Shown here piece after piece: positions 6,423 through 49,664 of a stretch of 64,000 nt of DNA (position 1 is the first letter of the stretch; every line of letters begins with the position of its first letter). Source of the DNA: a virus. Made by a program: the position numbers and the translations under genes. The notes beneath the pieces are model-generated. The model was not told the DNA's origin, did not search any database, and saw only the letters and a list, made by a program, of their open reading frames with translations. Location of the stretch: positions 1 to 64,000 of IMG/VR virus record IMGVR_UViG_3300021092_002038; one strand, written 5' to 3'.

Positions 6423-7382
6423 TTATATTTTCCAATTCATTTCTTTTAAACATTCTTTTACCGCATCTTTATCTTTTTCATCCAAGACCTTACTTAAATT
6501 TTCAAATAAATCTTCTAGCGTATATTTTTTATCATCGGATAACATTTTGTTTTTATTTTTCATATCTTGAATGGTATCAACAATTTTATCTAATGTCACT
6601 TTGTATTTATCGTAATGTTGTTTATCTACGAAATTAGACATAGTAAAAGATTTGGGTGTTATTGATTTTATTAAAAACAATATACTACTGCCTATAAATT
6701 CAAATATTTTGAATACTGCAGCTGCTATAGGATTTGACATCGCAGCTAGTTTTAAAATAAAAAACATAACTGCAAATATAAGAATTCCAACCAATAAAGA
6801 TGTAATAAATTTTTTAACGCCATAAAATATAGCCCCTAAACCAAACCACTTATCAAGTTCATTTACCTTTTGTGTATTTTCATCATTTTTTTCTGCAATT
6901 TCAGAACTTAACGCTTGATACTCTTTGGATGTTTTATCTAACTGTGATTTAAGTTTACTTCTTTCAGACTGAAGATATTGAATTTCTTTGTCTAGTTTAT
7001 TTAATTCAGCTCTGCCTTTTTCTCGTTCTATTTTTACCGCCGAAATTAAATCATCTACGATTTTTTGAATTCTTTTAAGATCGTTAATTTCAGGATTACC
7101 AGCTATAGATACGACCCGTTCATTCAATTCTTTTGCAACTTGAACTTCTTTAGATGGATCTTTTTCTTGATCTAACGCGTGATGTGTTCCTGCAGCTAAT
7201 ATGCCTATTTGATTCAATTTTTTATCGTTATTAACCGACAACGCATCTTTTTTACTTTGCATTTCGTTTGCTTTATCATTTAATCGGTCGGCGGATTCCG
7301 TAGTTGACCGTTTAAATAAACTTATACAGCCGGTGAAACAAAATACCGTCACCATTAAAAATAATATTAATAATCTTTTCAT
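6423..7382 (-). CDS. Lipoprotein with coiled coil and C-terminal membrane segments (spanin-like candidate)
   Basis: Signal MKRLLILFLMVTVFCFTG-C with a lipobox, a long heptad region, then hydrophobic FITSLLVGILIFAVMFFILKL and IAAAVFKIFEFIGSSILFLI. Confidence 0.55.
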   Translation of the reverse strand: MKRLLILFLMVTVFCFTGCISLFKRSTTESADRLNDKANEMQSKKDALSVNNDKKLNQIGILAAGTHHALDQEKDPSKEVQVAKELNERVVSIAGNPEINDLKRIQKIVDDLISAVKIEREKGRAELNKLDKEIQYLQSERSKLKSQLDKTSKEYQALSSEIAEKNDENTQKVNELDKWFGLGAIFYGVKKFITSLLVGILIFAVMFFILKLAAMSNPIAAAVFKIFEFIGSSILFLIKSITPKSFTMSNFVDKQHYDKYKVTLDKIVDTIQDMKNKNKMLSDDKKYTLEDLFENLSKVLDEKDKDAVKECLKEMNWKI

Positions 7383-7438: not shown

Positions 7439-7801
7439 CTATTTTTTGGGTTCATAGCTCACTCTAACAGGAGCGTTTCCTTTTGATGACGACCCCTTTT
7501 TTCCGTGTCCAGCCTTTCGTTGCGCAGACTTTTTTCTTCTAACAAAAGACGCACGTCCTTTTTTACCAAGTTTTTTTGCATATTTTTTGCCTAAGCAAGC
7601 ACTATAAGAGCTACCTTTTTTAGCGTCTCCACACTTACCGGTTTTTTCTCCTTTACTGTTGTATCTGTCCCATCCACCGCCTGAAGAACTACCTTTTGAA
7701 CCTTTTCCGAACCACGCTCTCAATCCTCCACTATATTTTTCTTGTACAGAGTCTATTTCCTCTATCTTAGCCAACAGTTTCTCTTCAATAATATTTTCCA
7801 T
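7439..7801 (-). CDS. Small basic protein, probable internal head protein
   Basis: Acidic leader ending VQE, then a K/G-rich GLRAWF...CG...CL...RRKK module of a type recalled from T4-like phages. Confidence 0.5.
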   Translation of the reverse strand: MENIIEEKLLAKIEEIDSVQEKYSGGLRAWFGKGSKGSSSGGGWDRYNSKGEKTGKCGDAKKGSSYSACLGKKYAKKLGKKGRASFVRRKKSAQRKAGHGKKGSSSKGNAPVRVSYEPKK

Positions 7802-7807
7802 ATAGTT

Positions 7808-8155
7808 TTATCCGTTTAATAATCGTTTATCTTTTTTATTTAAATTTGGAACCTCATATATTCCCATTTTATTCTTTAACATCCTCAATGCTGCGGCCGG
7901 TGGTATATTTCCAAAATTAGCCGCCAAAATACCATATTTTTTACAAAATTCTTCCAATTCTATAACGTCAGACTTATTGTGTTCTGTCGGAATTAATTCT
8001 ACATCTAGTTCTTTTATTTCTTTTTTCTTTTTATTTAAAAACGCTGCATAAATAGGATCGTCATTATTAACAGAATATACGTTGTCACACCCAAATTTCG
8101 ATGTTGTAAATTTTGAATTTTCGGTATTATAATTTATAGACTTATATTCATTCAT
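7808..8155 (-). CDS. Hypothetical protein
   Basis: 115-aa ORF within the operon. Confidence 0.6.
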   Translation of the reverse strand: MNEYKSINYNTENSKFTTSKFGCDNVYSVNNDDPIYAAFLNKKKKEIKELDVELIPTEHNKSDVIELEEFCKKYGILAANFGNIPPAAALRMLKNKMGIYEVPNLNKKDKRLLNG

Positions 8156-8157
8156 AA

Positions 8158-9993
8158 TTATTTTTTACTTTTTTTATTAGGCGAATTCAACTTTAAAAAT
8201 GTATGTAGTCCTATAACCGTAGTTACTTTCTCAGAATCATACCAGCTAGGTAAACTAGATGTTTTTGATTGTTTTTTAGTTAAAGCTACATTTAGAAAAT
8301 GGTCGGCTCCACCGGTGATATCTTTTAATTCTCCACTTCTAGCTTTTGAAACAATCTCCAATGCAAGAGTAAACTTTGAATGCGTTCTTTTAGAATCTAT
8401 AAAATTTTTAACACTCTTTATGTCGGATTTATCTATTGCATTCCACCCACTAAATTGTTGTGGTTTTAGACATTCAGCTCCCACTTGACTAAAATTGCCT
8501 TTAGCACGATTCATCAATACATTCATCACGGCAGTCATTCCCCTTTCCGCGTCCTTTTCTCCACCAGCCTCATCAACTAAAGTTGAAGCTATAACATCTT
8601 CATATGTATATGGGTGTGTTGGCGTCTTTACTGTTTGTGTCTTTGCTGTTTGTGTAATTTTGTCCGGTTCGACTGGTCCGTTCGCAGACACTTCAGGAGA
8701 ACCAACTAATGATCCTGCTACTGCGGCCAGACCTAATATTTTATTGAAACCTTCATCTAGTTTTCTTCCTTGTGGACCAAAGTGATCAAGGTGGTGATAC
8801 ACATCATCTAGATATTCACCAGCTAAATTTAACTTAGCTTTTACCCAGTCTTCTAATTGAGTGTTTGGTTTTAACATACTTTCTAGTTCTTTTGCGTCAT
8901 TATTTAATTGTTTTAATGCTCCTATAGCCATACTACTATTTTGTTCTTTTAATAGTTCACATATAGCTTCTTTATAATATTCTTTAACAGATTTACTTGA
9001 TGTTTCCCCACCAGCTTGTCTTTTTCTACGAGCCGCACAATGTGCTTTTTGACTAAATCCTTTTGGGTTACTACAATTTATACTCTTTTTATACTTATTT
9101 GACCACTTTTCTTGTATATTGGTCTTATCCTTTTCTTCATTATAAAACTTAAGATAATCTCTTACAGTAGCTACATAATCACACGCATGATTCAATTTAG
9201 CCTTTACCCAGTCTTCTAAATTATCATTGACCGTAAACATTGACTGTAATTTTTCACTATAATCTATGATTTTTGTAATATCACTCTGAGCCATCTCGGC
9301 GTTTTCCGAAGTCAATTTATTCGCATGAGGGTTTTCATGATTGACAGGATGTTCTAGGTCGCCCAACCCAGTTGATTGACTATCTAGCCATTGTTTGTGT
9401 GTTAATTCCTTCATAGATAATCTTCTTAATTGTTTTGCATATGCAGGTGGAAGCACAGGTGCAAGTAAATGGGGTGTTAAATCAATTTTTGAATTAGTAG
9501 TTGGTGTTGTTATCCGATCATATGGTTTATAATCTTTTTGATTAGAAGGAAACTCAAAGAGAGTATTATCATAAGATAATCCATTCTGTTTCATAAATTT
9601 ATCTAATAATCTCCGATTGTTATCTACAGTGGATTTAGAGTTCCAAAAAGATATAAACGAATTTGGTGAATGTTTCCACAGCCGGCCACTAAAAATAAAT
9701 TCATCTCGAGCCGTGTTATTTTTTATTAAATCTGGCTTTATTAAATGAATTAAATTTGCTAAACTTTCATGATCAAGCGCAATTTTAATATACTCTCGAT
9801 ATTTTACTTTTACCGGCTCTGAAATGTCGACGTCTCCTATTTTTAAGAAAAAATCAGCGCCAGAATTAGCGGTTTGTGCGATATATGATTTTCCAGCAGG
9901 AGTTTTGAATGCAAAAAAAGTTACTCCTCGTTGCCACTCAATCGTCTCATCAGGCAAAATTAATCTATCTGGAGATTCATTTAACATATTCAC
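8158..9993 (-). CDS. Modular protein with C-terminal SleB-like (Hydrolase_2) cell wall hydrolase
   Basis: C-terminus has TLVDEAGGE, GMTAVMNVLMNR, QFSGWN, DITGGADHF, PSW and IGLHTF. The middle has a duplicated LEDWVKAKLNxAxxY module and a KWSNKYKKSINCSNPKGFSQKAHC module. Confidence 0.8.
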   Translation of the reverse strand: MNMLNESPDRLILPDETIEWQRGVTFFAFKTPAGKSYIAQTANSGADFFLKIGDVDISEPVKVKYREYIKIALDHESLANLIHLIKPDLIKNNTARDEFIFSGRLWKHSPNSFISFWNSKSTVDNNRRLLDKFMKQNGLSYDNTLFEFPSNQKDYKPYDRITTPTTNSKIDLTPHLLAPVLPPAYAKQLRRLSMKELTHKQWLDSQSTGLGDLEHPVNHENPHANKLTSENAEMAQSDITKIIDYSEKLQSMFTVNDNLEDWVKAKLNHACDYVATVRDYLKFYNEEKDKTNIQEKWSNKYKKSINCSNPKGFSQKAHCAARRKRQAGGETSSKSVKEYYKEAICELLKEQNSSMAIGALKQLNNDAKELESMLKPNTQLEDWVKAKLNLAGEYLDDVYHHLDHFGPQGRKLDEGFNKILGLAAVAGSLVGSPEVSANGPVEPDKITQTAKTQTVKTPTHPYTYEDVIASTLVDEAGGEKDAERGMTAVMNVLMNRAKGNFSQVGAECLKPQQFSGWNAIDKSDIKSVKNFIDSKRTHSKFTLALEIVSKARSGELKDITGGADHFLNVALTKKQSKTSSLPSWYDSEKVTTVIGLHTFLKLNSPNKKSKK

Positions 9994-10754
9994 ATTCTCC
10001 AGCCTCCACCTTTTGATTTATACCACTTGGCGGCCCATCCGTTGGCATAAGCTGAGGGATAGACGTCAAATTTAGATCTAGCGGCAGATTTAGCTCTGGC
10101 CCAAAGCGCAGGATTAGTTGGCTTTGGTTTCTTAGACTTTTTCTTAGATTTCTTTTCATTTAAATTACAATCACATCCTTTTGTATTATCAGAACTGTGA
10201 TCTTTTTTTATTATCGGTTCACTTCTACGACCCAAAACTTCTCCATCAGATGTATCTCCAATGGTTCCGATTGCGTTTTTTATTATATTGTTTGAGTTTC
10301 CTATTCTAGGTATATCATTTATAGGATGATCGGCGTCTCCCAGTCCTGAATTTGTTGATGGAATAAATTCTTTTGCTAGTCCTGCCTTTACCAATTTAGT
10401 ATAATATTTAGGATCTTTTGCCAAATGATCTAAGGCTATTTCGGTAGCCACGTTTATATCGTTAGTATGTTCCATCTCAACTTGAACACCTGTAGATAAT
10501 TCCGAGGTATCTACATCCTCAGTAGCTGTGGTATCGCCACTGCCACCTTTTAATTTATTATTTTGTTCAGATGGTTTGTTTTCAAATTCACTAAAAAAAT
10601 CTTTATATTTCATAGATTCATCCTTTAATTTTTCAAAAGTTTTTCCGGTATCATATCCATAATCAATCATCCATCGTCTACCTTTCATAGCAGGATGTCC
10701 AATTATCGGGTCATTTAATTGTTCTTTACCTAAAGTTTTATAATTATTTGCCAT
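9990..10754 (-). CDS. DUF5661-like modular protein, probable internal head protein
   Basis: GVQVEMEHTNDINVATEIALDHLAKDPKYYTKL motif plus a basic C-terminal PTNPALW...YPSAYANGW...KGGGW module. Confidence 0.65.
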   Translation of the reverse strand: MANNYKTLGKEQLNDPIIGHPAMKGRRWMIDYGYDTGKTFEKLKDESMKYKDFFSEFENKPSEQNNKLKGGSGDTTATEDVDTSELSTGVQVEMEHTNDINVATEIALDHLAKDPKYYTKLVKAGLAKEFIPSTNSGLGDADHPINDIPRIGNSNNIIKNAIGTIGDTSDGEVLGRRSEPIIKKDHSSDNTKGCDCNLNEKKSKKKSKKPKPTNPALWARAKSAARSKFDVYPSAYANGWAAKWYKSKGGGWRM

Positions 10755-11616
10755 AATTTCTTTTAGACTTTATTTTTTCTTCAGTTTGTCTATACGCATC
10801 AACAACTCTTTTATCCACGTTTCTGTTTTTCAATTTGGAATTTTTTTCAATTATACCGTCAAAAATTTGTTTAAAAATTTGTTTTTTACCAATACCCGCC
10901 TCTTTAGATTCCTCGATGGCTGGTGTTGCGTTGTCAATTTTTGACTTTACTTCTTCTGAGGAAAGTTTTTCTCCTGTAAATGTGTCACCTTCTTCCGATT
11001 TGAACCAATAAATTCCATCAGGAGACACATTCTGCAAAACCATTTTGCGGCCATCGACATACAGAATGGATTCAACTACATGACCGGGAACTGAAACTTT
11101 AATTATTTCGTCGAAATCAACAAATGAACCGAAGTATTTACGTTTGCCGTTACCCAACGAGCGGGTCTTTGAAATATAAACGTTATTCGATTTTCCTTTG
11201 GTTTCATTGATGACAACCCTTGACGATTCTTTCATAAAATTATCGTCTATATTTAACATATTTAATTTTGAATAATACGTAGGGTCTTTTTTTAGATTAT
11301 CAATCACCATTTGTTTTGCGTATGATTTATTTTTATAAAACATACGTTTTAATTCATAATTTAATCCGCACAAAATTTCATCAGGAGTAACTTTGTCTTT
11401 AATGAAATCTATATCCTTTTGATCGGGTCCGGTAACTCGTGTAGAAGTATAAGAATCTATTTTATTTTGACCGGCAGGATAAAAATTAATTGGATGTTGA
11501 GAGACATCCGGCGAGGTATAAGTAGAAACTCCAGGATTTACAATTCCTGAAGTGCCGTATGATATTCCCGTGGCCATTCTATCCCCAAGATCGGTTTCGT
11601 TTACACTTTGATTCAT
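10744..11616 (-). CDS. Hypothetical modular protein (degenerate DUF5661-like segment)
   Basis: GLNYEL...AKQMVIDNLKKDPTYYSKL resembles the adjacent gene's motif. TATTTATG lies upstream at 11621-11628. Confidence 0.55.
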   Translation of the reverse strand: MNQSVNETDLGDRMATGISYGTSGIVNPGVSTYTSPDVSQHPINFYPAGQNKIDSYTSTRVTGPDQKDIDFIKDKVTPDEILCGLNYELKRMFYKNKSYAKQMVIDNLKKDPTYYSKLNMLNIDDNFMKESSRVVINETKGKSNNVYISKTRSLGNGKRKYFGSFVDFDEIIKVSVPGHVVESILYVDGRKMVLQNVSPDGIYWFKSEEGDTFTGEKLSSEEVKSKIDNATPAIEESKEAGIGKKQIFKQIFDGIIEKNSKLKNRNVDKRVVDAYRQTEEKIKSKRNYGK

Positions 11617-18772: not shown

Positions 18773-19050
18773 TATGTTGCTATTAAATTGCCGTCATTAT
18801 AAAATTTCAAAAAAGAAACAGAGTGTTTTATTTTTATAGTATATGCATATGAACTTATATATGTTACAGCTATGTATTCATACATTTGTTTACATTCTTT
18901 TAGCTTTATTTCCTTTTCTCGGGGTTGTGCACAGTTGCATAAAGCAATATATTGATCTACAGTTTTTACAAAATTATCAAATGGAGAATTATTTTGTAAT
19001 CCTGATTCTTTTATTAAATTATACAATTGTGTAAAATTGTTTATGTTCAC
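18769..19050 (-). CDS. Hypothetical protein
   Basis: 93-aa ORF overlapping both neighbours by 4 nt. Confidence 0.55.
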   Translation of the reverse strand: MNINNFTQLYNLIKESGLQNNSPFDNFVKTVDQYIALCNCAQPREKEIKLKECKQMYEYIAVTYISSYAYTIKIKHSVSFLKFYNDGNLIATY

Positions 19051-19388
19051 TGTATATTAATTAATTTTGATAATAAATAGTAACTCGTCAAAATAATTAA
19101 AACGTGAAAACAATATATTCCTAAACTAAAAGTATAAAACAGAATCGGCAAACACAACCATACTGACAAGCATATTGGGCAAGTAATTAGTCGTGTAAAA
19201 AAATTATTGTGATATTTTCTTAAATATAAATGATAGTTTAATTCAAAATCTTGAAGTTTTTCTTTTTCAAATTTATCTACCTTAAATAATTTAGACAAAC
19301 GAAATAATTTTACATATTCCAAAAATGCATCAGTTTTGAACCACACTATTAATAATAGCACAAAAATAAATATATAATTGTATTTCAT
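19047..19388 (-). CDS. Small membrane protein (DUF1360-like CPxC motif)
   Basis: Hydrophobic segments and the LITCPICLSVW motif. Confidence 0.6.
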   Translation of the reverse strand: MKYNYIFIFVLLLIVWFKTDAFLEYVKLFRLSKLFKVDKFEKEKLQDFELNYHLYLRKYHNNFFTRLITCPICLSVWLCLPILFYTFSLGIYCFHVLIILTSYYLLSKLINIQ

Positions 19389-35174: not shown

Positions 35175-37289
35175 TTAATTTTCTTTTTTTAAAAACATAA
35201 TATTCAACGTTTTAGCGATTTCTAATAAATTTTTTACATTTATAAATGATGCGTTTTTACCATACATCATTCTAAATTGTTCCGTAATTTCGTTGGTATC
35301 CACATCAGAGATACCTATATTTCCATTATTTAATGTGTTAATATGTATAAAATAAGATAGAACTTCGTATCCTGATCGAATTACTTTTTTAATTTGATTT
35401 CTAGTGTGTTCTGCCGCTTTACGCCCTTGATACATATGAGTTAAATTATTAATTTCAACGGACAAATATGGAAGTCCGTCAGATAAATTTATAAAATAAT
35501 AATCTTCGTCTGAATTTTTTGCGGGTAAGTTTTTTACTATTGGTTCAAAACATAACCCTTCAGGAGTTGTATTAGCCGGATAAATGTGACTAAAATCATT
35601 TTTTATTTTATTAAAAGAGTCTTTAGTTGAGTCGTATGCAATTACAACGTATGGCGTATATGTATTGGTACTAACTTTTACAGAGGTTCTAAAACTTACT
35701 ACTACATTTACGTTATTAATCATTGAACATGCCTTACAAATAGCCACTACGGTTGTAAGTGTATTTCTCCACTTTTCTCCGCCCATCGAACTGCTAGCGT
35801 CTACACTAATATGAATGTTAGCGTTTTTATATTTATCCATTTGATTTGTAAAAAATACGGTTGGAGAATCAAAGGCAAGATCCGATAAAGTTCGTCTATC
35901 AATTTTTCCCGAAGACTTTCTCATGAATTTTGTTGTGTTTACAGAATTTCTAATTTGAAGTCGTTTCCCCAAAAGCTGTCCTAGACTGATTCCATTTCTA
36001 ATACAGTTTTCATTTTCTCGATGAGTTAATACGTTATTACCATCGTTCAATGGAAATTTTTCATCCATCAATAATTCTCGTGTGAGATTTTTAACAAAAA
36101 CGCAATCAACGTTTGTTCCGAAAAAATCTTCTCCCACTTTTATTAAGGTCATTCCGCTATTTTCTATATTAGATATGGTGTTATTATCTAATTTATTCAA
36201 ACTCTTTTTAAGGAACTGATGATCCATAAATTTTTTTTGATTTTTAAAACTGTTTTTTACTTTTTCTATCAGAGTTTTTGTCAGTTTTTTAACGTTGCCG
36301 TTTTGTTTTTTCTCAGATTTAGATTCATCAGTTTTATTATCTTGGTCTGTATCATCGTTTGTATCGTCGTTTTTTACATTTTCTTCCTTGTTGTCTGAAT
36401 CTGCGAGTTCTACATCTTTATTACTATTATCTGAATTTTTATCTTTTAAATTTGTGGATGGTTCGTCGTTATCCGCCTGTTCAGATTTATTTAAATGATT
36501 GTCACATTTAGATGTTGTTTTTGATCCTATTTCCGATTTTGTTTCTGTAGTATTAACATCTGATATATTTTTCAATATCAATTTAACACATTCGACGGCA
36601 GTTAAAAATCTATCGCTCGGAGTTTTCAAACGACTAATGTTTTTGTAATCTATCATTTTATAAATTTTTTCAAGATCTGGTAATGCTGCCAAATCGGTAT
36701 TTTCGTTTGTAAAATTAAAAATTCTGAACGTATATGATTCCACGTCTAAACTTCTGTACAATTCGCTTTTTAACGCAACATTATTTATTTTACTGTTAAA
36801 ATATTTGTTATATAATTCTATGTAGTATCCTTGATAGCCTACGGATGTAGTATATACATACCAATCAATATATCTGTCTTCGACATAATTTATCATATCT
36901 TTGGTTAATTCCCACACCGATTCTTTGCTCATGTTAATTTTTTCGGATAATTCGTATATTTCTCTAGGAATTCTTTGCCATAAGGTCTTTAAAATGTTCA
37001 TATCCGACAAAACTATATGAGCGGATTCGTGTAACGCCAATCCAACAGTCACGTCGAAATCTTTTTTGCAACTTATCTTTGATGTAATGTAAATTGTTTC
37101 ACCATCGGTTGAACTGTTTCCCGATGTCTTAAATTTTACAGGTACATTTTTATTGGTTAATATTTTTACGAAATTTGAAATAGCCAGTCTATATGCGGCT
37201 AATTGTATCAAATTTAAATCTAATTTAGAATAATTTTCTTCTTCAACCGATTCCTCATTCAACCAAAAATCTGAATAAGTATCATTCAT
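35175..37289 (-). CDS. VWA-domain protein with N-terminal HExxH metallopeptidase-like domain (MoxR partner)
   Basis: STDG...LHESAH...NYVED, an acidic linker, SGKID, and MIDAS motifs VDASSSM, TPEG and LSDG. Confidence 0.85.
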   Translation of the reverse strand: MNDTYSDFWLNEESVEEENYSKLDLNLIQLAAYRLAISNFVKILTNKNVPVKFKTSGNSSTDGETIYITSKISCKKDFDVTVGLALHESAHIVLSDMNILKTLWQRIPREIYELSEKINMSKESVWELTKDMINYVEDRYIDWYVYTTSVGYQGYYIELYNKYFNSKINNVALKSELYRSLDVESYTFRIFNFTNENTDLAALPDLEKIYKMIDYKNISRLKTPSDRFLTAVECVKLILKNISDVNTTETKSEIGSKTTSKCDNHLNKSEQADNDEPSTNLKDKNSDNSNKDVELADSDNKEENVKNDDTNDDTDQDNKTDESKSEKKQNGNVKKLTKTLIEKVKNSFKNQKKFMDHQFLKKSLNKLDNNTISNIENSGMTLIKVGEDFFGTNVDCVFVKNLTRELLMDEKFPLNDGNNVLTHRENENCIRNGISLGQLLGKRLQIRNSVNTTKFMRKSSGKIDRRTLSDLAFDSPTVFFTNQMDKYKNANIHISVDASSSMGGEKWRNTLTTVVAICKACSMINNVNVVVSFRTSVKVSTNTYTPYVVIAYDSTKDSFNKIKNDFSHIYPANTTPEGLCFEPIVKNLPAKNSDEDYYFINLSDGLPYLSVEINNLTHMYQGRKAAEHTRNQIKKVIRSGYEVLSYFIHINTLNNGNIGISDVDTNEITEQFRMMYGKNASFINVKNLLEIAKTLNIMFLKKEN

Positions 37290-37322: not shown

Positions 37323-38294
37323 CTAAAATGGTACATTTACGTTATTTGATGGAATTGTAGATGGAACCGACGCCGTTTTTTTACCGCTAAAGGGATTTTC
37401 TGCCGTTATTCTAGGGTCTTTTATATATTTTTGTACCAATTGTTTGACATATGTTCTTTCGCTATTAACTCCACCATCGTTATCAAAATTAGGATAAATT
37501 GCGCTTTCGGCAATTTCTTCTAAATTAAATCCGTCCACTAATAATTCTGTCATTTCTACAGACGCTCTAGTTGATAGAAAGTTAGTAAGTTTAGAATCTT
37601 CTTTTTTAATATTTATACGTGTATGAGCACAAATCTCCAAAATGTTTTCTAGTATAGATATTTTAGATGTGTCACTTATATTAAATCGTTCAGTTAATAA
37701 TTTTAATTCTTCTTCAATTTTCAATGGATTCATTTCAATTTTAACCGAAAATCTATTAAGTAATGCTCTATCCATTACCCTAGTAGATGTGTATTCATTA
37801 CCTATATTAGCCGTGGCAATAAAACTTACATTTTTAGCTACCTTGACCGTTTCTACATTGGATTTTTCGTCTAACCTCAGATATCTTTGAAGATCATCTA
37901 ATACCGTCATTAAAATGTTCCATGCATCAGGATGAGCTCTGCTTATTTCATCTAATAAGATGATTGCGCCTTCAGTTCTAATTGCAGATACAAATGCGCT
38001 TTCATTAAAAACTGTTCCTGTGTTTTTGTCGAATTGGGTATTTCCTATCAAACTACATCTCGCATCTTGTGTGCTTCCCAAATTAAAATAAAAAAATTTA
38101 TCGATTTTCTTTAAGGCTTTTGCAGCGCTAATAGCGGCCAATGATTTTCCACATCCTGTGGGTCCTACGATTAAGATATTTTTTCCACGTAAAACATTTC
38201 TTATCAAATATTTCCATTTCAAATCATCAATAATGAGTTCGGATGGTTTTATGTCTTTACACGAATTTATTATTTTTTTAATGTCGTTATTCAC
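37323..38294 (-). CDS. MoxR/CbbQ-family AAA+ ATPase
   Basis: GPTGCGKS, LLDEISR, ATAN, MDRALLNRF and STR motifs. Confidence 0.92.
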   Translation of the reverse strand: MNNDIKKIINSCKDIKPSELIIDDLKWKYLIRNVLRGKNILIVGPTGCGKSLAAISAAKALKKIDKFFYFNLGSTQDARCSLIGNTQFDKNTGTVFNESAFVSAIRTEGAIILLDEISRAHPDAWNILMTVLDDLQRYLRLDEKSNVETVKVAKNVSFIATANIGNEYTSTRVMDRALLNRFSVKIEMNPLKIEEELKLLTERFNISDTSKISILENILEICAHTRINIKKEDSKLTNFLSTRASVEMTELLVDGFNLEEIAESAIYPNFDNDGGVNSERTYVKQLVQKYIKDPRITAENPFSGKKTASVPSTIPSNNVNVPF

Positions 38295-38346: not shown

Positions 38347-39333
38347 TTACTTACTTTTAATTTTATGTGCGGGTAGATTTAATTCTTTGCCTTTTCCACC
38401 TTTTAAAACGTGTTTCTTTTCGACTTTACTCTGTTTAGGATATGTGTATTTAACTTTCTCGCCTTCACTTGGGTGTTCCGATTGTTTATTTACCTTGTTT
38501 ACTTCTTTCATAGGTTGATTAGGTAAATCTTCTTCATTTACTACTTGATTTTCTTTATAGTCTTTTTGTTCGTTTTTCTTATCATTCAAAGATTTAATAG
38601 GATTTTGTTTGGTTTCAGGAAGTTCCGATCCTTTTACCTGATCATTTGTTTGTTCTGCGGATTTATTATAAGCTTTTTGAACGTAGTTGCCTTTTTCGTT
38701 TAATTTTTCTTTTACGAACTTTTTTAATTCATCTAAACTGTCATTCATATGTCTGGTTCTGTCGGTCCCATCTTTCGTATGAATTATATCATATGAATCC
38801 ATATAATTTGGTCGAATGTGAAAATAATGCGGGAAACATCCAGAAATTTCGTATCCGCCGAGTTTACTTGGTTTCACACAATAATCTTTGCTATATTCTT
38901 TAACTACCTTATCTAAAGCGACCATGGATTCCTCAATGGATTTCTGAGTTTCCAATTTAATTTCTTCAATTGATTCTTTAATCAATGATGTTAGAATTTT
39001 TCTTTTAGACTCTTCTAATTTAGAAAGTTCCTTTTCCGCATCCAATTCGTGTTTTTTTACATATCCATCGGATCCCAGATACACATAACCTTTATCTTTA
39101 GCGACTTGATCAGCAAATGTCAAAATTTCTTCTTGAACGGATTCCGCTTGAGCGACATCTTTGATATGAGAATAAATTATATTAGATATATCATCATGAT
39201 CCAAATATGTTTCGTTTTCATTAAATAGTTTTTCGACCTCGGATTTTATAGTATCTACCATAGATTCAAGATGTGCTGGATTCATCTCGTTCAAAACTTC
39301 TTGTATCAACGACTTTAACTCAGAAATATTCAT
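38347..39333 (-). CDS. Hypothetical protein, probable internal head protein
   Basis: N-terminal MNISELKSLIQEVLNE, E/K-rich body, and TATTTATA at 39338-39345. Confidence 0.55.
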   Translation of the reverse strand: MNISELKSLIQEVLNEMNPAHLESMVDTIKSEVEKLFNENETYLDHDDISNIIYSHIKDVAQAESVQEEILTFADQVAKDKGYVYLGSDGYVKKHELDAEKELSKLEESKRKILTSLIKESIEEIKLETQKSIEESMVALDKVVKEYSKDYCVKPSKLGGYEISGCFPHYFHIRPNYMDSYDIIHTKDGTDRTRHMNDSLDELKKFVKEKLNEKGNYVQKAYNKSAEQTNDQVKGSELPETKQNPIKSLNDKKNEQKDYKENQVVNEEDLPNQPMKEVNKVNKQSEHPSEGEKVKYTYPKQSKVEKKHVLKGGKGKELNLPAHKIKSK

Positions 39334-39345
39334 ATATTATAAATA

Positions 39346-40119
39346 TCATATAAAAAAAGAATCGTTAATATTATTTTCGACATCAAAAGTCTGTATTTCG
39401 TCGGAATAAGTAGAAAGTTTTGGATATGGTAAAATTGGATGTTTTAGAGATTTTTTTAATTTTTTGTTTAAAATCTTATTGGATATAAATTTTATATATC
39501 TGTGTTTAGAACTTTCTTTCTTTCTCCAAAAAGTTTTACCTATTCTTTTTTTGAGATGTTCAATATTATGACTGCCCCACTTGGAAAACACCGTTCGACT
39601 GTGAATCCATTTATAATTTGGAGGACCATCTAAACTTATGCTATAATTAGGCATTAAACACAAACTATTGTTGCCTTGATATAAAAAGCCTGTAGCTTGA
39701 TATATGATTCCTGAGTGATTTACTTCTGAATCCGAATAACTTACCACCGATTTTATATGTGGAAAATCTTTATTTAATTGTTTAAAAGATTCTGCAATAC
39801 AATAACTTTCTATATTTTTACCATATCCGTCATGAATAAACAGTCTTACCAATTCAAATACTTCGTCTTTTGATAATAAATCGGATAATGAACTCGACAC
39901 ACTTCTTCCTACAGGTTGACTATAAACCACGCAACCAATTAATTTATCTACTGTGTCGTTAAAATATAAAAACTTCTCTTCAGTTTTATAAAAAATACCG
40001 TATGCTATCCTGCATAACGTCCATTTATGAGTATAATGGTTTTTTATAATAATATCTTTTGCTACTTTGCTGCTTATTGGTTTTAAATAAACTTTTTCAA
40101 CATCACAATATTTTTCCAT
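39346..40119 (-). CDS. mom: Mom-family adenine-modification enzyme (GNAT fold)
   Basis: IIKNHY, LIGCVVY, ELVRL, NIES and VSYSD...HSGIIYQATGFLYQG motifs, plus KHRY. Confidence 0.85.
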   Translation of the reverse strand: MEKYCDVEKVYLKPISSKVAKDIIIKNHYTHKWTLCRIAYGIFYKTEEKFLYFNDTVDKLIGCVVYSQPVGRSVSSSLSDLLSKDEVFELVRLFIHDGYGKNIESYCIAESFKQLNKDFPHIKSVVSYSDSEVNHSGIIYQATGFLYQGNNSLCLMPNYSISLDGPPNYKWIHSRTVFSKWGSHNIEHLKKRIGKTFWRKKESSKHRYIKFISNKILNKKLKKSLKHPILPYPKLSTYSDEIQTFDVENNINDSFFI

Positions 40120-40155: not shown

Positions 40156-40725
40156 TTATTTAATTTTTAAACTTCCTATATAACCGTTATTATGAGTTTT
40201 TATCGCATTACACTCTACTAAGAATGTGTTTCCGTTGTCTCCAACCATTCTATAAGTATCTTGATACATTCTTCCATCCGTTACACAATCGTTCCAATGA
40301 TCTACAACCCTTTCTCGATCTTCTTCATGTATTACGTTTTTCCAACCGTGTTCTAAAAAATAACTAATATCATGTTTAAATAATTTTGTGTATGCCGAAT
40401 TTACCCATATACATTTTCCGTCATCAGAACTTTCAAAAATAGGCTCTTCTCTGTTATCCAAAATCCATCTCTGTCTGTGAAATATTTTTTCTGTAATTTG
40501 TGTGTTAATCGCCATCTGTTCGGACAAATGATTTATTTTATCTTTTATAGAGCCACCGCCGTTAGGTATAACTTCTTTGAAAATAACGTCTAGTTTATTT
40601 TGAAACGATAATAATTTTTCATACTGTTTTTTTATCCATGTAATTATCCACGTAATCGTTTTATAAAGAGTACCTATCAACCCCAGTATTAGTATAGTGA
40701 TCTGTAAATTGTTTTCGATATCCAT
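40156..40725 (-). CDS. Membrane-anchored PAS-domain protein (holin-like N-terminus)
   Basis: N-terminal TM, then IPNGGGSIKD, then PAS motifs DDGKCIWVN and GWKNVIHEEDRERV...W...YRM. Confidence 0.75.
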   Translation of the reverse strand: MDIENNLQITILILGLIGTLYKTITWIITWIKKQYEKLLSFQNKLDVIFKEVIPNGGGSIKDKINHLSEQMAINTQITEKIFHRQRWILDNREEPIFESSDDGKCIWVNSAYTKLFKHDISYFLEHGWKNVIHEEDRERVVDHWNDCVTDGRMYQDTYRMVGDNGNTFLVECNAIKTHNNGYIGSLKIK

Positions 40726-40771
40726 ATATCAATTATAAATATAATTAATTTTTATAAAAGTTAAAAATGAT

Positions 40772-42745
40772 TTACCTTATAGGGCAAAATCCACCGTCGC
40801 ATTCTATTCCTTGAATAAGTTCTCCTGTAATAACTGTGTTAAAAATTCTGTGTTTTATTTTTTCCGTTCCACGGATATATTCTTCCTCTGTAATTTCTTG
40901 ATAAGGAGCTTGTTTGAAACCATGTTCTTTGTGTAATAAAAAACTTACACTTTTAATGTTTTGTTTATAATTTTCAGATAACCACTTTTTTAATTTTTCT
41001 AATTCTTCCGATTTATAATAAGCCGTAACACTAACTGCATTGTCACTCCAAATCGATTGCAATTTCTTTACCATTTCCAATTGTTCGATTACGTTCATTT
41101 CTTTAGCGAGAATAGCGCCTTCTGGAGTTTTACATGGAAAATATACAACTACCGTGTCGTGATTTTCTGATCCATCAAGGTTTAACAAATATTCCACGTG
41201 ATATCCGGAATCTTTACATATTTTTACTAATTTATCGCTAGAAGACATCCGGATGGTTCTCATGTAATATTTACTATATGACGGATGAATTCCAGGAGTG
41301 GCGCCTCCTAAAAGAGACAATGTGCCACTTGGTTTTATGGTGGTAAGTTTTATACTTTCAGGCCAACCTTTTTGTTTGCTCCATTCTCTATCAAATTTTC
41401 TCAACATTACATAAACTTTATCTAACCATTCTATTTTATTTAGTGATTGACAAATTCCTGTCACACCTAATCCCAACCTCATATTTTTATGAACAATTTT
41501 ATTAGTTTCGTCGTGGATAAAAGGAAGTGCAGCGATGGCTTTTTGAGTCTTATACAGTAATTTTGCACAATCAAAAAGTTCTTCTTGACTATCTATGTTG
41601 TTCAAATATAATTCAGATAAATTGCAACATTCATAGCTAGATAAAGAAATTTCTGAACAAGGGTTAGTGCCTATGACATTATCGACGTCAGTAGGATACA
41701 TTTCGTTTCCCTTTAACGGTCCATCTTTTAATCTTCCATACGTCTGAGATAATGGCAAATTAAACAATCCATAAGGTTCTCCATTTGCATATCCTGTTTC
41801 TTTGTTTACTATATATCCATTTTTCCACACTTCTTCCATTATATGTTCAAATTCATCAACATATATAGTGTTATTGCTCATAGCTCGCCAGTTTGGGATA
41901 TTCCCACTAGACCAATTTTTTGCTCTTAAATACAAAATATCATCAGGATCACCTAAAGCGATTTCAGCACTTCTTCTTACGTTTCCAGCCACTACTATAC
42001 TTCCAATAATATTACATACATCTAACACATCTACGCTTCTTAATTTTTTTCCTTCTCGATTTTGAAAAATAGTTTTTATTTTTTCTATACCTTCTACTAA
42101 AATTGCGGGCCCACTAGCTTTTCCACCAAAACCGTTAATAGGTTCGCCGGCTCCTCTAATTAATATGGTGGAATAATTAAATGATTTTCCGGTTTCGTAG
42201 AATGATTTTAAAACGTATTCCAATAGTTTAACCCATCCTTCTCGAGTATCAGGAACAATAAAATCCGCATCTTTAGTTAATTTGTGAATTACATTTACTC
42301 CTTTTTTAATTTTTGGAAGCTCGTGAACATCTTCTCGTCTAATGCTATAACCTACGCCGCCACCAAGCATTAAATTTTCAAACAAAAACGTAAACGCTTT
42401 TGGTTCATTAATACTTACATACCAACAATTCAATAAACTATTTGCGCCAAATCTATCAACTGTAGATGTTCCTAACTGCCATAACATTCTGCCTGCAAAA
42501 TTGCATTTTAAATTAAAAATTAAATCAAACAGTCTCTGTGCTTCTTCTTTTGTGTAGCTCGCTCCGAGTTTTTGAGCCCCGTTTATACAACGAGCCACTG
42601 TCTCATGCCACTCTTCGGTGTTTCCATCATCTTTAGTTCTGGCATAAGTTCTTTTGTATACGATATATCCTAGTCCGTTAAATCCCCAGTTAGGTTGTTT
42701 GTTCTTATAATTTTCCAAAAAATCTTTTTCAATAATCTCATTCAT
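40772..42745 (-). CDS. nrdJ: Class II (adenosylcobalamin-dependent) ribonucleotide reductase
   Basis: YKRTYAR, LLNCW, GGGVG, VRRSAEI, TNPCSEI, CCNL, TTIKPSGT and C-terminal CDGGFCP motifs. Confidence 0.95.
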   Translation of the reverse strand: MNEIIEKDFLENYKNKQPNWGFNGLGYIVYKRTYARTKDDGNTEEWHETVARCINGAQKLGASYTKEEAQRLFDLIFNLKCNFAGRMLWQLGTSTVDRFGANSLLNCWYVSINEPKAFTFLFENLMLGGGVGYSIRREDVHELPKIKKGVNVIHKLTKDADFIVPDTREGWVKLLEYVLKSFYETGKSFNYSTILIRGAGEPINGFGGKASGPAILVEGIEKIKTIFQNREGKKLRSVDVLDVCNIIGSIVVAGNVRRSAEIALGDPDDILYLRAKNWSSGNIPNWRAMSNNTIYVDEFEHIMEEVWKNGYIVNKETGYANGEPYGLFNLPLSQTYGRLKDGPLKGNEMYPTDVDNVIGTNPCSEISLSSYECCNLSELYLNNIDSQEELFDCAKLLYKTQKAIAALPFIHDETNKIVHKNMRLGLGVTGICQSLNKIEWLDKVYVMLRKFDREWSKQKGWPESIKLTTIKPSGTLSLLGGATPGIHPSYSKYYMRTIRMSSSDKLVKICKDSGYHVEYLLNLDGSENHDTVVVYFPCKTPEGAILAKEMNVIEQLEMVKKLQSIWSDNAVSVTAYYKSEELEKLKKWLSENYKQNIKSVSFLLHKEHGFKQAPYQEITEEEYIRGTEKIKHRIFNTVITGELIQGIECDGGFCPIR

Positions 42746-49235: not shown

Positions 49236-49664
49236 TTATTTGGTTAATTGATTCACTATTTCTTTTTTAAAATCAATATATTTGTTGTTAATTTCTGGAT
49301 ATTTTTCAGCTATACTATTCCACTCAACATCTAATAACTTTATATTTTTATTATAGTTATCTAAATCTATGTTACCGATTGCGTGTACAACCGCATCTAC
49401 AATTTTTTGTGTTTCGCTTATACCGGCTTTTATATCTATTCTTTTTTTTCTATCAATATAATTTGTTATTACATGTAACACTTTAGACTTCATTGCAAAA
49501 TCTTTATCATCATACGGATTTATTTTTGTGGCTGGAAAAGTTCCATTTTTATCATCTTGCGAGTTTGTTGAATCGAATGGGTCACGGGGTTCATTTTCCA
49601 ATCCTTGTAAATTCATTTCGTATAAAACTTCTTGTATCAACGATTTTAGTTCTTTTTTTTTCAT
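49236..49664 (-). CDS. Hypothetical protein, probable internal head protein
   Basis: N-terminal MKKKELKSLIQEVLYEMN is nearly identical to that of 38347..39333. Confidence 0.55.
   Translation of the reverse strand: MKKKELKSLIQEVLYEMNLQGLENEPRDPFDSTNSQDDKNGTFPATKINPYDDKDFAMKSKVLHVITNYIDRKKRIDIKAGISETQKIVDAVVHAIGNIDLDNYNKNIKLLDVEWNSIAEKYPEINNKYIDFKKEIVNQLTK

What the first reader, a model, noticed from the sequence alone, without database searches (positions are those of the whole stretch)
40156..40725. Holin-like membrane protein fused to a PAS sensor domain
Seen: one N-terminal TM, a PNGGGSIKD motif with a short coiled coil, then a complete PAS domain and no output domain, under a TATTTATA motif. 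From memory, PNGGxSxxD occurs in small phage lysis-cassette membrane proteins. Established: T4 holin T has a single TM plus a soluble regulatory domain. Inference: a lysis timer gated by a ligand or by redox state.
Basis: inference. Interest (0 to 1): 0.7.

Follow-up and report, generated by a model that had tools for sequence, protein, structure and literature searches.

The report
Phage lysis-cassette membrane module fused to PAS
A large uncultured phage encodes a small membrane protein that joins a conserved module, normally found next to phage cell-bursting genes, to a cytoplasmic PAS sensor domain, so some phages may tune host lysis to the cell's internal state, though this has not been tested.

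Summary
Window 40156-40725 (-) encodes a 189-aa protein with one N-terminal TM, an invariant ExxPNxGxS[IL]KD loop, a helix and a complete PAS_3 domain. It has no output domain, and TATTTATA lies 8 nt before the ATG.

The TM+motif module is phrog_9869 (unknown function, no Pfam family), with 2,180 representative clusters. Stand-alone forms sit in lysis cassettes: Streptomyces phage mu1/6 gp52 follows endolysin and holin, and 33 of 37 metagenomic loci precede a putative peptidase.

PAS-fused forms (45 unique loci, about 15 contexts) lie in verified lysis cassettes in three distant lineages (next to a GH19 endolysin, a PG-binding protein, or an Rz-like spanin with an M15_4 endolysin). Two more contexts are plausible.

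The window's own lineage (16 unique loci) places the gene in the replication module (RNR-[PAS]-Mom-MoxR), 30 kb from the only detectable cell-wall hydrolase.

Cassettes nearly always hold a second small TM protein, and in mu1/6 that one is the holin. Predicted topology is N-out/C-in, opposite to T4 holin T.

Best reading (about 0.45): a PAS-gated accessory or regulator of holin-dependent lysis, not the holin itself. No function is shown. This is a new variant of a known kind.

The parts
40156..40725 (-). Whole gene: 189-aa membrane-anchored PAS protein (P0001); the stop codon is 40156-40158
   Evidence: ORF and translation. 45 full-length homologues. AlphaFold2 mean pLDDT 84.9.
40636..40701 (-). 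N-terminal transmembrane segment (about residues 9-30), predicted N-out/C-in
   Evidence: Kyte-Doolittle 1.71. Helix 3-52. K/R count is higher after the TM than before it in 174 of 179 family members, mean 3.6 versus 0.4. The topology is an inference from the positive-inside rule.
40540..40575 (-). Invariant juxtamembrane loop E51-x-x-P-N-G-G-G-S-I-K-D62, the signature of the phrog_9869 module
   Evidence: Invariant columns. phrog_9869 E=2.3e-4 for residues 49-77, and 8e-15 for the stand-alone form. The motif is present in 147 of the top 150 representatives. The loop has low pLDDT, between two helices.
40456..40548 (-). Linker helix (residues 60-90) ending in the invariant RQRW junction into the PAS core
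   Evidence: Helix 60-90. R84, Q85, R86 and W87 are invariant.
40159..40455 (-). PAS domain (PAS_3 type, residues about 91-189); nothing follows it
   Evidence: Pfam PAS_3 E=7.1e-9, plus PAS and PAS_4. PDB profile hit 3nja E=1e-4. Foldseek hits to PAS/LOV/FixL at E about 3e-7.
40734..40741 (-). TATTTATA (core ATATTTAT) element 8 nt upstream of the ATG; a candidate promoter or start-proximal element
   Evidence: ATATTTAT[AT] is conserved upstream of the orthologue in group-A loci, often after a hairpin plus T-run. In the 80-kb contig, 10 of 35 copies lie within 35 nt upstream of gene starts in the sense orientation. Its function was not tested.

Best explanation
The gene encodes a single-pass inner-membrane protein with a short N-terminus outside and everything else in the cytoplasm. 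Its membrane-proximal part (TM, basic stretch, helix, invariant ExxPNxGxS[IL]KD loop, helix) is a module that phages normally encode as a small stand-alone protein inside holin-endolysin lysis cassettes. Here, and in many other uncultured phages, that module is extended by a cytoplasmic PAS sensor domain.

The most likely role is an accessory or regulatory partner of the holin-dependent lysis pathway, either antiholin-like or co-holin-like. In this reading the PAS domain binds a ligand, a cofactor or a protein partner that reports the state of the infected cell. The signal passes through the linker helix to the motif and TM region, and so advances or delays membrane permeabilisation.

Shown: the architecture, the conservation, the homology of the module, and its lysis-cassette neighbourhoods in other phages.

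Inferred: the topology, the regulatory rather than pore-forming role, the direction of signalling, and that the function is kept in the window's lineage, where the gene sits in the replication module behind its own start-proximal ATATTTATA element.
For: 1. Module identity. phrog_9869 matches P0001 (E=2.3e-4) and other PAS-fused forms (E=4.6e-8 and 1.4e-7), and matches stand-alone forms more strongly (E=8e-15 and 4.7e-13). The motif is invariant across lineages. The family has 2,180 representative clusters.

2. Stand-alone forms lie in lysis cassettes.
- mu1/6: endolysin gp50, holin gp51, then gp52.
- TurkishDelight: endolysin 35, holin 36, then gp37.
- Sonali: gp22, then lysin A gp23.
- P1312: gene 040, then the amidase 041.
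- In 33 of 37 metagenomic loci the 67-aa protein directly precedes a VldE/M15-clan-like protein. In 22 of those loci a 62-aa 2-TM protein was also found, usually next.

3. PAS-fused forms lie in lysis cassettes.
- L110: [PAS], a 2-TM 111-aa protein, then a GH19 endolysin (E=3.2e-28 to solved endolysin 9ms6).
- L113/L114: a PG-binding protein, a TM 69-aa protein, then [PAS].
- L062: an M15_4 + PG_binding_1 endolysin, then an Rz-like spanin, then [PAS]. L061: an Rz-like spanin, then [PAS].
- Group C (44% identical to the window protein): a 2-TM 70-aa protein, a distant Peptidase_C92 protein, an OmpA-like protein, a TM/lipoprotein pair, then [PAS].

4. Most of these cassettes hold a second small TM protein. 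In mu1/6 that one is the annotated holin, backed by a published functional study (reference seen). This argues for an accessory role rather than the sole holin.

5. The positive-inside rule puts the motif and the PAS domain in the cytoplasm, where PAS_3 domains normally act.

6. In group A the gene is preceded by a hairpin plus T-run and a conserved ATATTTAT[AT] element. The same element precedes several very large unannotated ORFs in the contig. The gene therefore need not be co-expressed with RNR.
Against: - No experiment exists for any member of the module, and PHROGs lists it as 'unknown function'.
- In the window's own lineage (16 of 45 unique loci) the neighbours are SSB, UvsX, an exonuclease, DnaB, RNR, Mom and MoxR. 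Group H is also a nucleotide-metabolism context, and group B lies between terminase/HNH and portal.
- The only detectable cell-wall hydrolase in the window (8158-9993, Hydrolase_2) is 30 kb away.
- The verified lysis-cassette examples are only 23-28% identical to the window protein.
- The PAS ligand cannot be guessed. Foldseek ranks LOV, heme and ligand-free PAS domains equally.
- The contig is only about 28% complete, so the phage's real lysis cassette is unknown.
Confidence: 0.45

Rival explanations
1. It is itself the pore-forming holin. The single TM oligomerises into the lethal membrane lesion, and the PAS domain gates triggering.
For: It has generic holin traits: it is small, has one TMD and has a charged juxtamembrane region. 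It has a weak match to phrog_15431 'holin' (E=0.009; up to 1.4e-5 for an actinobacterial member). RefSeq labels the LiSara homologue 'holin'. Some cassettes show no other obvious TM protein (P1312).
Against: In mu1/6 and TurkishDelight a different gene is the holin. A second small TM protein accompanies it in most cassettes. No Pfam holin family matches. GenBank calls the same LiSara gene only 'membrane protein'. A folded 100-aa cytoplasmic domain is atypical for holins.
Confidence: 0.15
2. In the window's lineage the protein has been recruited away from lysis. It would be a membrane-anchored PAS sensor acting on replication or nucleotide metabolism, for example reporting redox or oxygen state relevant to ribonucleotide reductase, or tethering a replication or host-takeover factor to the membrane.
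For: It sits directly downstream of RNR in about 18 of the 22 other group-A loci, whether RNR is class II (c12) or class I alpha+beta (c16+c17). A second lineage places it between a pyrophosphatase and a dCMP-deaminase-like gene. PAS domains commonly sense O2 or redox state (established knowledge).
Against: All group-A loci are syntenic over more than 15 kb, so the adjacency may simply be inherited. A terminator-like hairpin and a separate start-proximal element lie between RNR and the gene in many loci. The N-module motif stays invariant in this lineage, which suggests its original biochemical role is kept. Other lineages lack any RNR link.
Confidence: 0.2
3. It is a membrane-located superinfection-exclusion, defence or counter-defence factor, and lysis cassettes are merely a common place for such accessory (moron-like) membrane genes.
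For: Small single-pass phage membrane proteins often act in exclusion (established knowledge). Its genomic position varies between lineages. A stand-alone member has an insignificant SieB match (E=0.056).
Against: The tight, often overlapping coupling to endolysin genes (Sonali, P1312) and the 33-of-37 conserved cassette order are more typical of core lysis components than of morons. There is no significant match to any exclusion family.
Confidence: 0.1

Closest known systems
phrog_9869 stand-alone proteins (for example Streptomyces phage mu1/6 gp52, TurkishDelight gp37, Arthrobacter phage Sonali gp22, Thermobifida phage P1312_040, and 67-aa proteins of freshwater viral contigs)
   Same: A homologous N-terminal module: one TM, a basic stretch, a helix, the invariant ExxPNxGxS[IL][KR]D loop and a second helix, with the same predicted N-out/C-in topology.
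   Different: These end after a short helix or coiled coil and lie in lysis cassettes. The window protein carries a C-terminal PAS domain and lies in a replication module. None of them has a tested function.
T4 holin T and its antiholins RI/RIII (lysis inhibition)
   Same: The concept is the same: a single-TM lysis protein whose soluble domain receives a signal that resets lysis timing (established knowledge).
   Different: There is no sequence relationship, as P0001 has no Phage_holin_T match. T's sensor domain is periplasmic (N-in/C-out), whereas here the soluble domain is predicted cytoplasmic. The T4 signal is superinfection, whereas here the sensor is a PAS domain with an unknown ligand.
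VqmA-Phi of vibriophage VP882, a phage PAS-domain receptor that triggers lysis (from my own knowledge: Silpe and Bassler 2019)
   Same: A phage-encoded PAS sensor that links a small-molecule cue to the decision to lyse.
   Different: VqmA-Phi is a soluble transcription factor with a DNA-binding domain. The window protein has no DNA-binding domain, is membrane-anchored, and would act post-translationally at the membrane.
Short PAS/LOV proteins without an effector domain (for example PpSB1-LOV, W619_1-LOV), and the FixL and Aer-type PAS sensors
   Same: The same PAS fold with flanking helices as the only 'output' (Foldseek hits 5luv, 8a36 and 1d06, E about 4e-7).
   Different: Sequence identity is 15-20%. 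There is no LOV Cys motif (GxNCRFLQ) and no recognisable FixL-type heme histidine. Those proteins are soluble or belong to kinase or chemoreceptor systems.

Membership tests
PAS fold (Pfam PAS_3 / PAS clan) | HMM match above the curated cut-off | tested here: met
   PAS_3 scores 36.3 bits against 25.6, PAS 26.4 against 22.6, and PAS_4 23.9 against 23.1.
PAS fold (Pfam PAS_3 / PAS clan) | Five-stranded antiparallel sheet with flanking helices | tested here: met
   The AlphaFold2 model has strands 96-99, 105-108, 154-161, 167-176 and 182-188 with helices between them, and pLDDT above 90 over the domain. Foldseek probability is 1.00 to solved PAS domains.
PAS fold (Pfam PAS_3 / PAS clan) | Bound cofactor or ligand (FMN, FAD, heme or other) | not testable with these tools
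   No LOV or FixL signature was seen by eye. Foldseek does not discriminate between cofactor types.
phrog_9869 lysis-cassette membrane module (no Pfam family) | Profile match | tested here: met
   E=2.3e-4 for residues 49-77. This is marginal for P0001 alone but is backed by E=4.6e-8 and 1.4e-7 for other PAS-fused members and 8e-15 for stand-alone forms.
phrog_9869 lysis-cassette membrane module (no Pfam family) | Invariant ExxPNxGxS[IL][KR]D loop about 30 residues after a single N-terminal TM | tested here: met
   The median gap from the TM to the motif is 30 residues; in P0001 it is 28.
phrog_9869 lysis-cassette membrane module (no Pfam family) | Encoded within or next to a holin/endolysin cassette | tested here: not met
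   In the window the neighbours are RNR and Mom, and the nearest PG hydrolase is 30 kb away. The feature is met in other PAS-fused lineages.
Holins (functional class) | Small membrane protein with at least one TMD, encoded next to the endolysin | tested here: inconclusive
   The TMD is present. Adjacency is absent in the window and present in some homologues, but those cassettes also contain another, more holin-like TM protein.
Holins (functional class) | Match to a curated holin family | tested here: not met
   No Pfam holin family matches at E<=1. The only hit is phrog_15431 'holin' at E=0.009 over 34 residues.
Holins (functional class) | Forms lethal membrane lesions that release endolysin | not testable with these tools
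   This needs expression and complementation assays.
T4 holin T family (PF11031) | HMM match, with N-in/C-out topology and a periplasmic C-terminal domain | tested here: not met
   P0001 has no PF11031 hit. The positive-inside rule predicts the opposite topology.
PAS-domain transcription factors of the VqmA type | C-terminal DNA-binding (HTH) domain | tested here: not met
   The protein ends with the PAS domain.

The most novel reading that the evidence does not exclude
A widespread, undescribed class of phage lysis regulators. A conserved single-pass membrane module (ExxPNxGxS[IL]KD; 2,180 clusters; no Pfam family) works with holins. In dozens of uncultured phage lineages it has acquired a cytoplasmic PAS sensor. 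This would let the phage read host redox, energy or metabolite state and reset the lysis clock post-translationally, as a cytoplasmic, ligand-gated counterpart of T4 lysis inhibition.
Probability: 0.3. Interest if true: 0.8.

Novelty: new variant of a known kind. Interest (0 to 1): 0.6.

Why it matters
Lysis timing sets phage fitness, yet apart from T4 lysis inhibition and holin/antiholin ratios, little is known about how phages adjust it to the state of the host.

A sensor domain attached directly to a lysis-cassette membrane protein would be a simple, testable route for doing so. The module it is attached to is itself an uncharacterised, very common cassette component with a strictly invariant motif.

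Working out either part would add a new player to the holin-endolysin model. It could also give a ligand-controllable lysis switch for biotechnology. If the protein instead proves unrelated to lysis in this lineage, it would still be a rare case of a phage-encoded membrane PAS sensor embedded in a replication module.

Tried and rejected
I used the search for related loci instead.

Searches that found nothing useful:
- tblastn of P0001 against 50,697 cultured-phage records found no relative, even at E<=10.
- Amidase_2 and Phage_lysozyme searches of four source records found nothing, but those records are only 28-53% complete, so this says little.
- The group-C C92-like protein is absent from those records.
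- No paper in the library mentions the motif strings or a PAS-holin fusion.
- There are no tRNAs in the window.

Jobs that gave no usable result:
- The homodimer prediction of P0001 gave 'no answer' (score 0.10). It is not used as evidence either way.
- m18, the 308-aa neighbour in the L119 group, had no match in PDB or in cultured phages. None of the 120 listed homologues (of 1,590 found) carries a Pfam domain. Its AlphaFold2 model had pLDDT 41 and was not fold-searched. Its papain-like Q/C/H/NSWG pattern is seen by eye only, so that group stays ambiguous.
- The sigma-70 promoter and terminator scan around the gene was uninformative, with fewer hits than in shuffled sequence.

Ideas considered and rejected:
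- T4 holin T homology or analogy: rejected on the lack of an HMM match and on topology.
- A functional RNR operon link: considered less likely because terminator-like hairpins and a separate start-proximal element intervene, and other lineages lack RNR adjacency.
- Guessing the cofactor from Foldseek neighbours: rejected because LOV, heme and apo PAS domains score the same.

Full report
**1. The observation**

Window 40156-40725 (minus strand) is a 189-aa ORF. It has the following features.

- One hydrophobic segment at about residues 9-30.
- The sequence PNGGGSIKD at residues 54-62.
- A Pfam PAS_3 match (E=7.1e-9, above the cut-off), with PAS and PAS_4 also above their cut-offs.
- Nothing after the PAS domain.

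An AlphaFold2 model built with 24 homologues is confident, with mean pLDDT 84.9. It shows helix 3-52, a low-confidence loop at the motif (53-59), helix 60-90, and a canonical PAS fold at 96-188. Foldseek matches solved PAS/LOV/FixL domains at E about 3e-7.

TATTTATA lies 8 nt upstream of the ATG on the gene's strand. All elements of the observation are confirmed.

**2. The protein family**

A database search found 45 full-length homologues of 188-221 aa. In an alignment of 24 of them three things are invariant:

- the loop residues E51, P54, N55, G57, S59, K61 and D62;
- the junction R84-Q85-R86-W87;
- several PAS core residues.

The TM segment is conserved only in its hydrophobic character.

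The window is part of an 80,467-bp IMG/VR viral contig estimated to be 28% complete. It appears to come from a large uncultured phage with about 30% G+C. Its class II RNR is closest (50% identity) to that of Maribacter phage Panino. No cultured phage encodes a detectable relative of the PAS protein.

**3. The N-terminal module is a lysis-cassette component**

The region around the motif matches phrog_9869 ('unknown function'). It matches a 'holin' PHROG (15431) only weakly. No Pfam family covers it.

A profile of the module from 19 divergent sequences finds 2,180 representative clusters at E<=1e-3. Among the best 150:

- 147 carry the motif;
- about 125 of those 147 have a TM segment before it by the hydropathy criterion used, nearly always a single one;
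- the C-terminal extension is absent, a coiled coil, or a PAS domain (two PAS domains in one case).

Stand-alone members in cultured actinophages lie in lysis cassettes.

| Phage | Gene order |
|---|---|
| Streptomyces phage mu1/6 | endolysin gp50, holin gp51, then gp52 |
| Streptomyces phage TurkishDelight | endolysin 35, holin 36, then 37 |
| Arthrobacter phage Sonali | 22, overlapping lysin A 23, then membrane protein 24 |
| Thermobifida phage P1312 | 040, overlapping the amidase 041 |
| Arthrobacter phage LiSara | 70, called 'holin' in RefSeq and 'membrane protein' in GenBank |

In 37 metagenomic viral loci the 67-aa form directly precedes a 160-180-aa protein in 33 cases. In 22 of them a 62-aa 2-TM protein was also found, usually right after it.

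That 160-180-aa protein has a weak VanY match over the metal-site region. Its nearest language-model clusters are VldE/ARB-07466-like, with Extensin-like_C in one. This makes it a lead for an M15-clan peptidase, not a proof.

Two further points matter:

- Where a holin has been identified, it is another gene. The mu1/6 gp51 functional study is cited.
- A second small TM protein is almost always present in the cassette.

**4. Where the PAS-fused forms sit**

I combined IMG/VR, GTDB-genome and metagenome scans. This gave 45 unique PAS-fused loci in about 15 context groups.

Verified lysis cassettes:

- **L110:** tail-fibre-like genes, [PAS], a 2-TM 111-aa protein, then a GH19 endolysin (E=3.2e-28 to solved endolysin 9ms6).
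- **L113/L114:** a protein with the phiKZ-gp144-type PG-binding domain, a TM 69-aa protein, then [PAS].
- **L062:** a Peptidase_M15_4 + PG_binding_1 endolysin, then an Rz-like spanin, then [PAS]. **L061:** an Rz-like spanin, then [PAS].

Plausible lysis cassettes:

- **Group C** (44% identical to the window protein): a 2-TM 70-aa protein, a 143-aa distant Peptidase_C92 relative (homologues carrying PF05708 at E=1e-7 to 6e-4; atlas lead), an OmpA-like protein, an overlapping TM/lipoprotein pair, then [PAS].
- **Group G:** a 319-aa lipoprotein with a coiled coil and C-terminal TMs, a TM protein, an ankyrin-repeat protein, then [PAS].

Ambiguous:

- **Group F:** [PAS], a 2-TM 71-aa protein, then an abundant unannotated 308-aa protein with a papain-like residue pattern seen by eye only.

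Not lysis:

- **Group A** (the window's group, 16 unique loci): SSB, UvsX, exonuclease, DnaB, RNR (class II or class I), [PAS], Mom, c4, MoxR-type AAA, then a 704-aa protein.
- **Group H:** pyrophosphatase, [PAS], then a dCMP-deaminase-like gene.
- **Group B:** terminase, HNH, [PAS], then portal.

**5. The window's own lineage**

The only detectable peptidoglycan hydrolase in the window is the 611-aa protein at 8158-9993 (Hydrolase_2, E=6e-10; phrog_938 'endolysin'). It lies 30 kb from the PAS gene.

Two genes from that hydrolase lies a 319-aa lipoprotein (6423-7382). It is homologous (37% identity, E=3.5e-67) to the group-G lipoprotein that neighbours a PAS-fused gene.

Between RNR and the PAS gene, many group-A loci have a hairpin plus T-run followed by a conserved ATATTTAT[AT] element 4-18 nt before the ATG. 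In the 80-kb contig, 10 of 35 copies of ATATTTAT lie within 35 nt upstream of gene starts in the sense orientation. These include several very large unannotated ORFs.

The PAS gene therefore probably starts its own transcription unit. Whether this element marks late genes is unknown.

**6. Topology and mechanism**

In 174 of 179 family members, K/R residues are more frequent in the 15 residues after the TM than before it (mean 3.6 versus 0.4). By the positive-inside rule the N-terminus is outside, and the motif, linker helix and PAS domain are cytoplasmic.

This is the opposite of T4 holin T, and no Phage_holin_T match exists for this protein.

The most economical model is a membrane-anchored, PAS-gated accessory of the holin pathway. 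A cytoplasmic signal sensed by the PAS domain passes through the invariant RQRW junction and linker helix to the motif and TM region, which modulates a partner holin or the membrane.

The alternatives are that it is the holin itself, that it has been recruited to nucleotide or replication control in this lineage, or that it is an exclusion or defence factor. They are scored in the rivals section.

The PAS ligand is unknown, because LOV, heme and apo PAS structures score equally.

**7. Novelty**

No paper in the searchable library mentions the motif or a PAS-holin fusion. PHROGs lists the module as unknown, and Pfam has no family for it.

Phage lysis regulators and a phage PAS receptor (VqmA-Phi; from my own knowledge) are both known. 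I therefore rate this a new variant of a known kind, with moderate to high interest. Function remains entirely untested.

**8. Limits**

- All source contigs are incomplete.
- The homodimer job gave no verdict and is not used as evidence.

Noticed in passing
window, minus-strand copies at 2835, 2846, 3408, 39338, 40734, 51999 and 62273; also 10744-11616 and 40772-42745 upstream regions: The element (T/G)ATATTTAT(A) ends 1-19 nt before start codons. TATTTATA occurs 28 times against 17.2 +/- 4.6 expected. For the core ATATTTAT, 10 of 35 copies in the 80-kb contig lie within 35 nt upstream of gene starts in the sense orientation. It is too close to the ATG for a classical -10 box with a leader, so it may be a promoter for leaderless or short-leader mRNAs, or a translation-start element. 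It reads as the reverse complement of the T4 late promoter TATAAATA.
   Followed up: partly
window 8158-9993 (-), 7808-8155 (-), 7439-7801 (-), 6423-7382 (-): This is a candidate lysis region of this phage. It holds a 611-aa protein with a C-terminal Hydrolase_2 (SleB-type) cell-wall hydrolase domain, two small unannotated ORFs, and a 319-aa protein with a lipoprotein signal, a coiled coil and C-terminal TMs. That last architecture resembles a unimolecular spanin. The 319-aa protein is 37% identical to a protein two genes upstream of a PAS-fused gene in L099.
   Followed up: partly
window 38347-39333 (-) and 49236-49664 (-): Two otherwise different proteins (328 aa and 142 aa) begin with nearly the same roughly 18-residue sequence (ELKSLIQEVLxEMN). 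I did not examine it further.
   Followed up: no
window 37323-38294 (-) and 35175-37289 (-), next to RNR class II at 40772-42745 (-): A MoxR/CobS-like AAA_5 ATPase (phrog_249 'porphyrin biosynthesis') is followed by a conserved 704-aa protein with no family match. This pair is syntenic in all group-A loci. It may be a CobS/CobT-like pair beside a B12-dependent RNR.
   Followed up: no
window 39346-40119 (-): A Mom-like DNA modification protein (Pfam Mom E=1.9e-40) lies immediately downstream of the PAS gene, suggesting DNA hypermodification in this phage.
   Followed up: no
window 19047-19388 (-): A 113-aa protein with three hydrophobic segments has a sub-threshold Phage_holin_T hit (E=0.002, 18 bits against 22.2). 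It is a possible holin candidate or simply a membrane protein.
   Followed up: no
L119:5136-6059 and homologues (P0196-P0315): A 307-309-aa protein is very abundant in marine (Tara) viral contigs of up to about 173 kb, with 1,590 homologues and no Pfam domain on any of the 120 listed. Its invariant Q...GDC...H...NSWG pattern resembles papain-type peptidases. It sits after a PAS-fused gene and a 2-TM protein. It may be an unrecognised endolysin class.
   Followed up: partly
P0160 (396 aa): One family member has one TM followed by two successive helix+PAS units. The first has the canonical motif and the second a degenerate one.
   Followed up: no
L023:1073-1683: In one group-B contig the PAS-fused gene is split into 123-aa and 71-aa ORFs. 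This could be a frameshift or a pseudogene.
   Followed up: no
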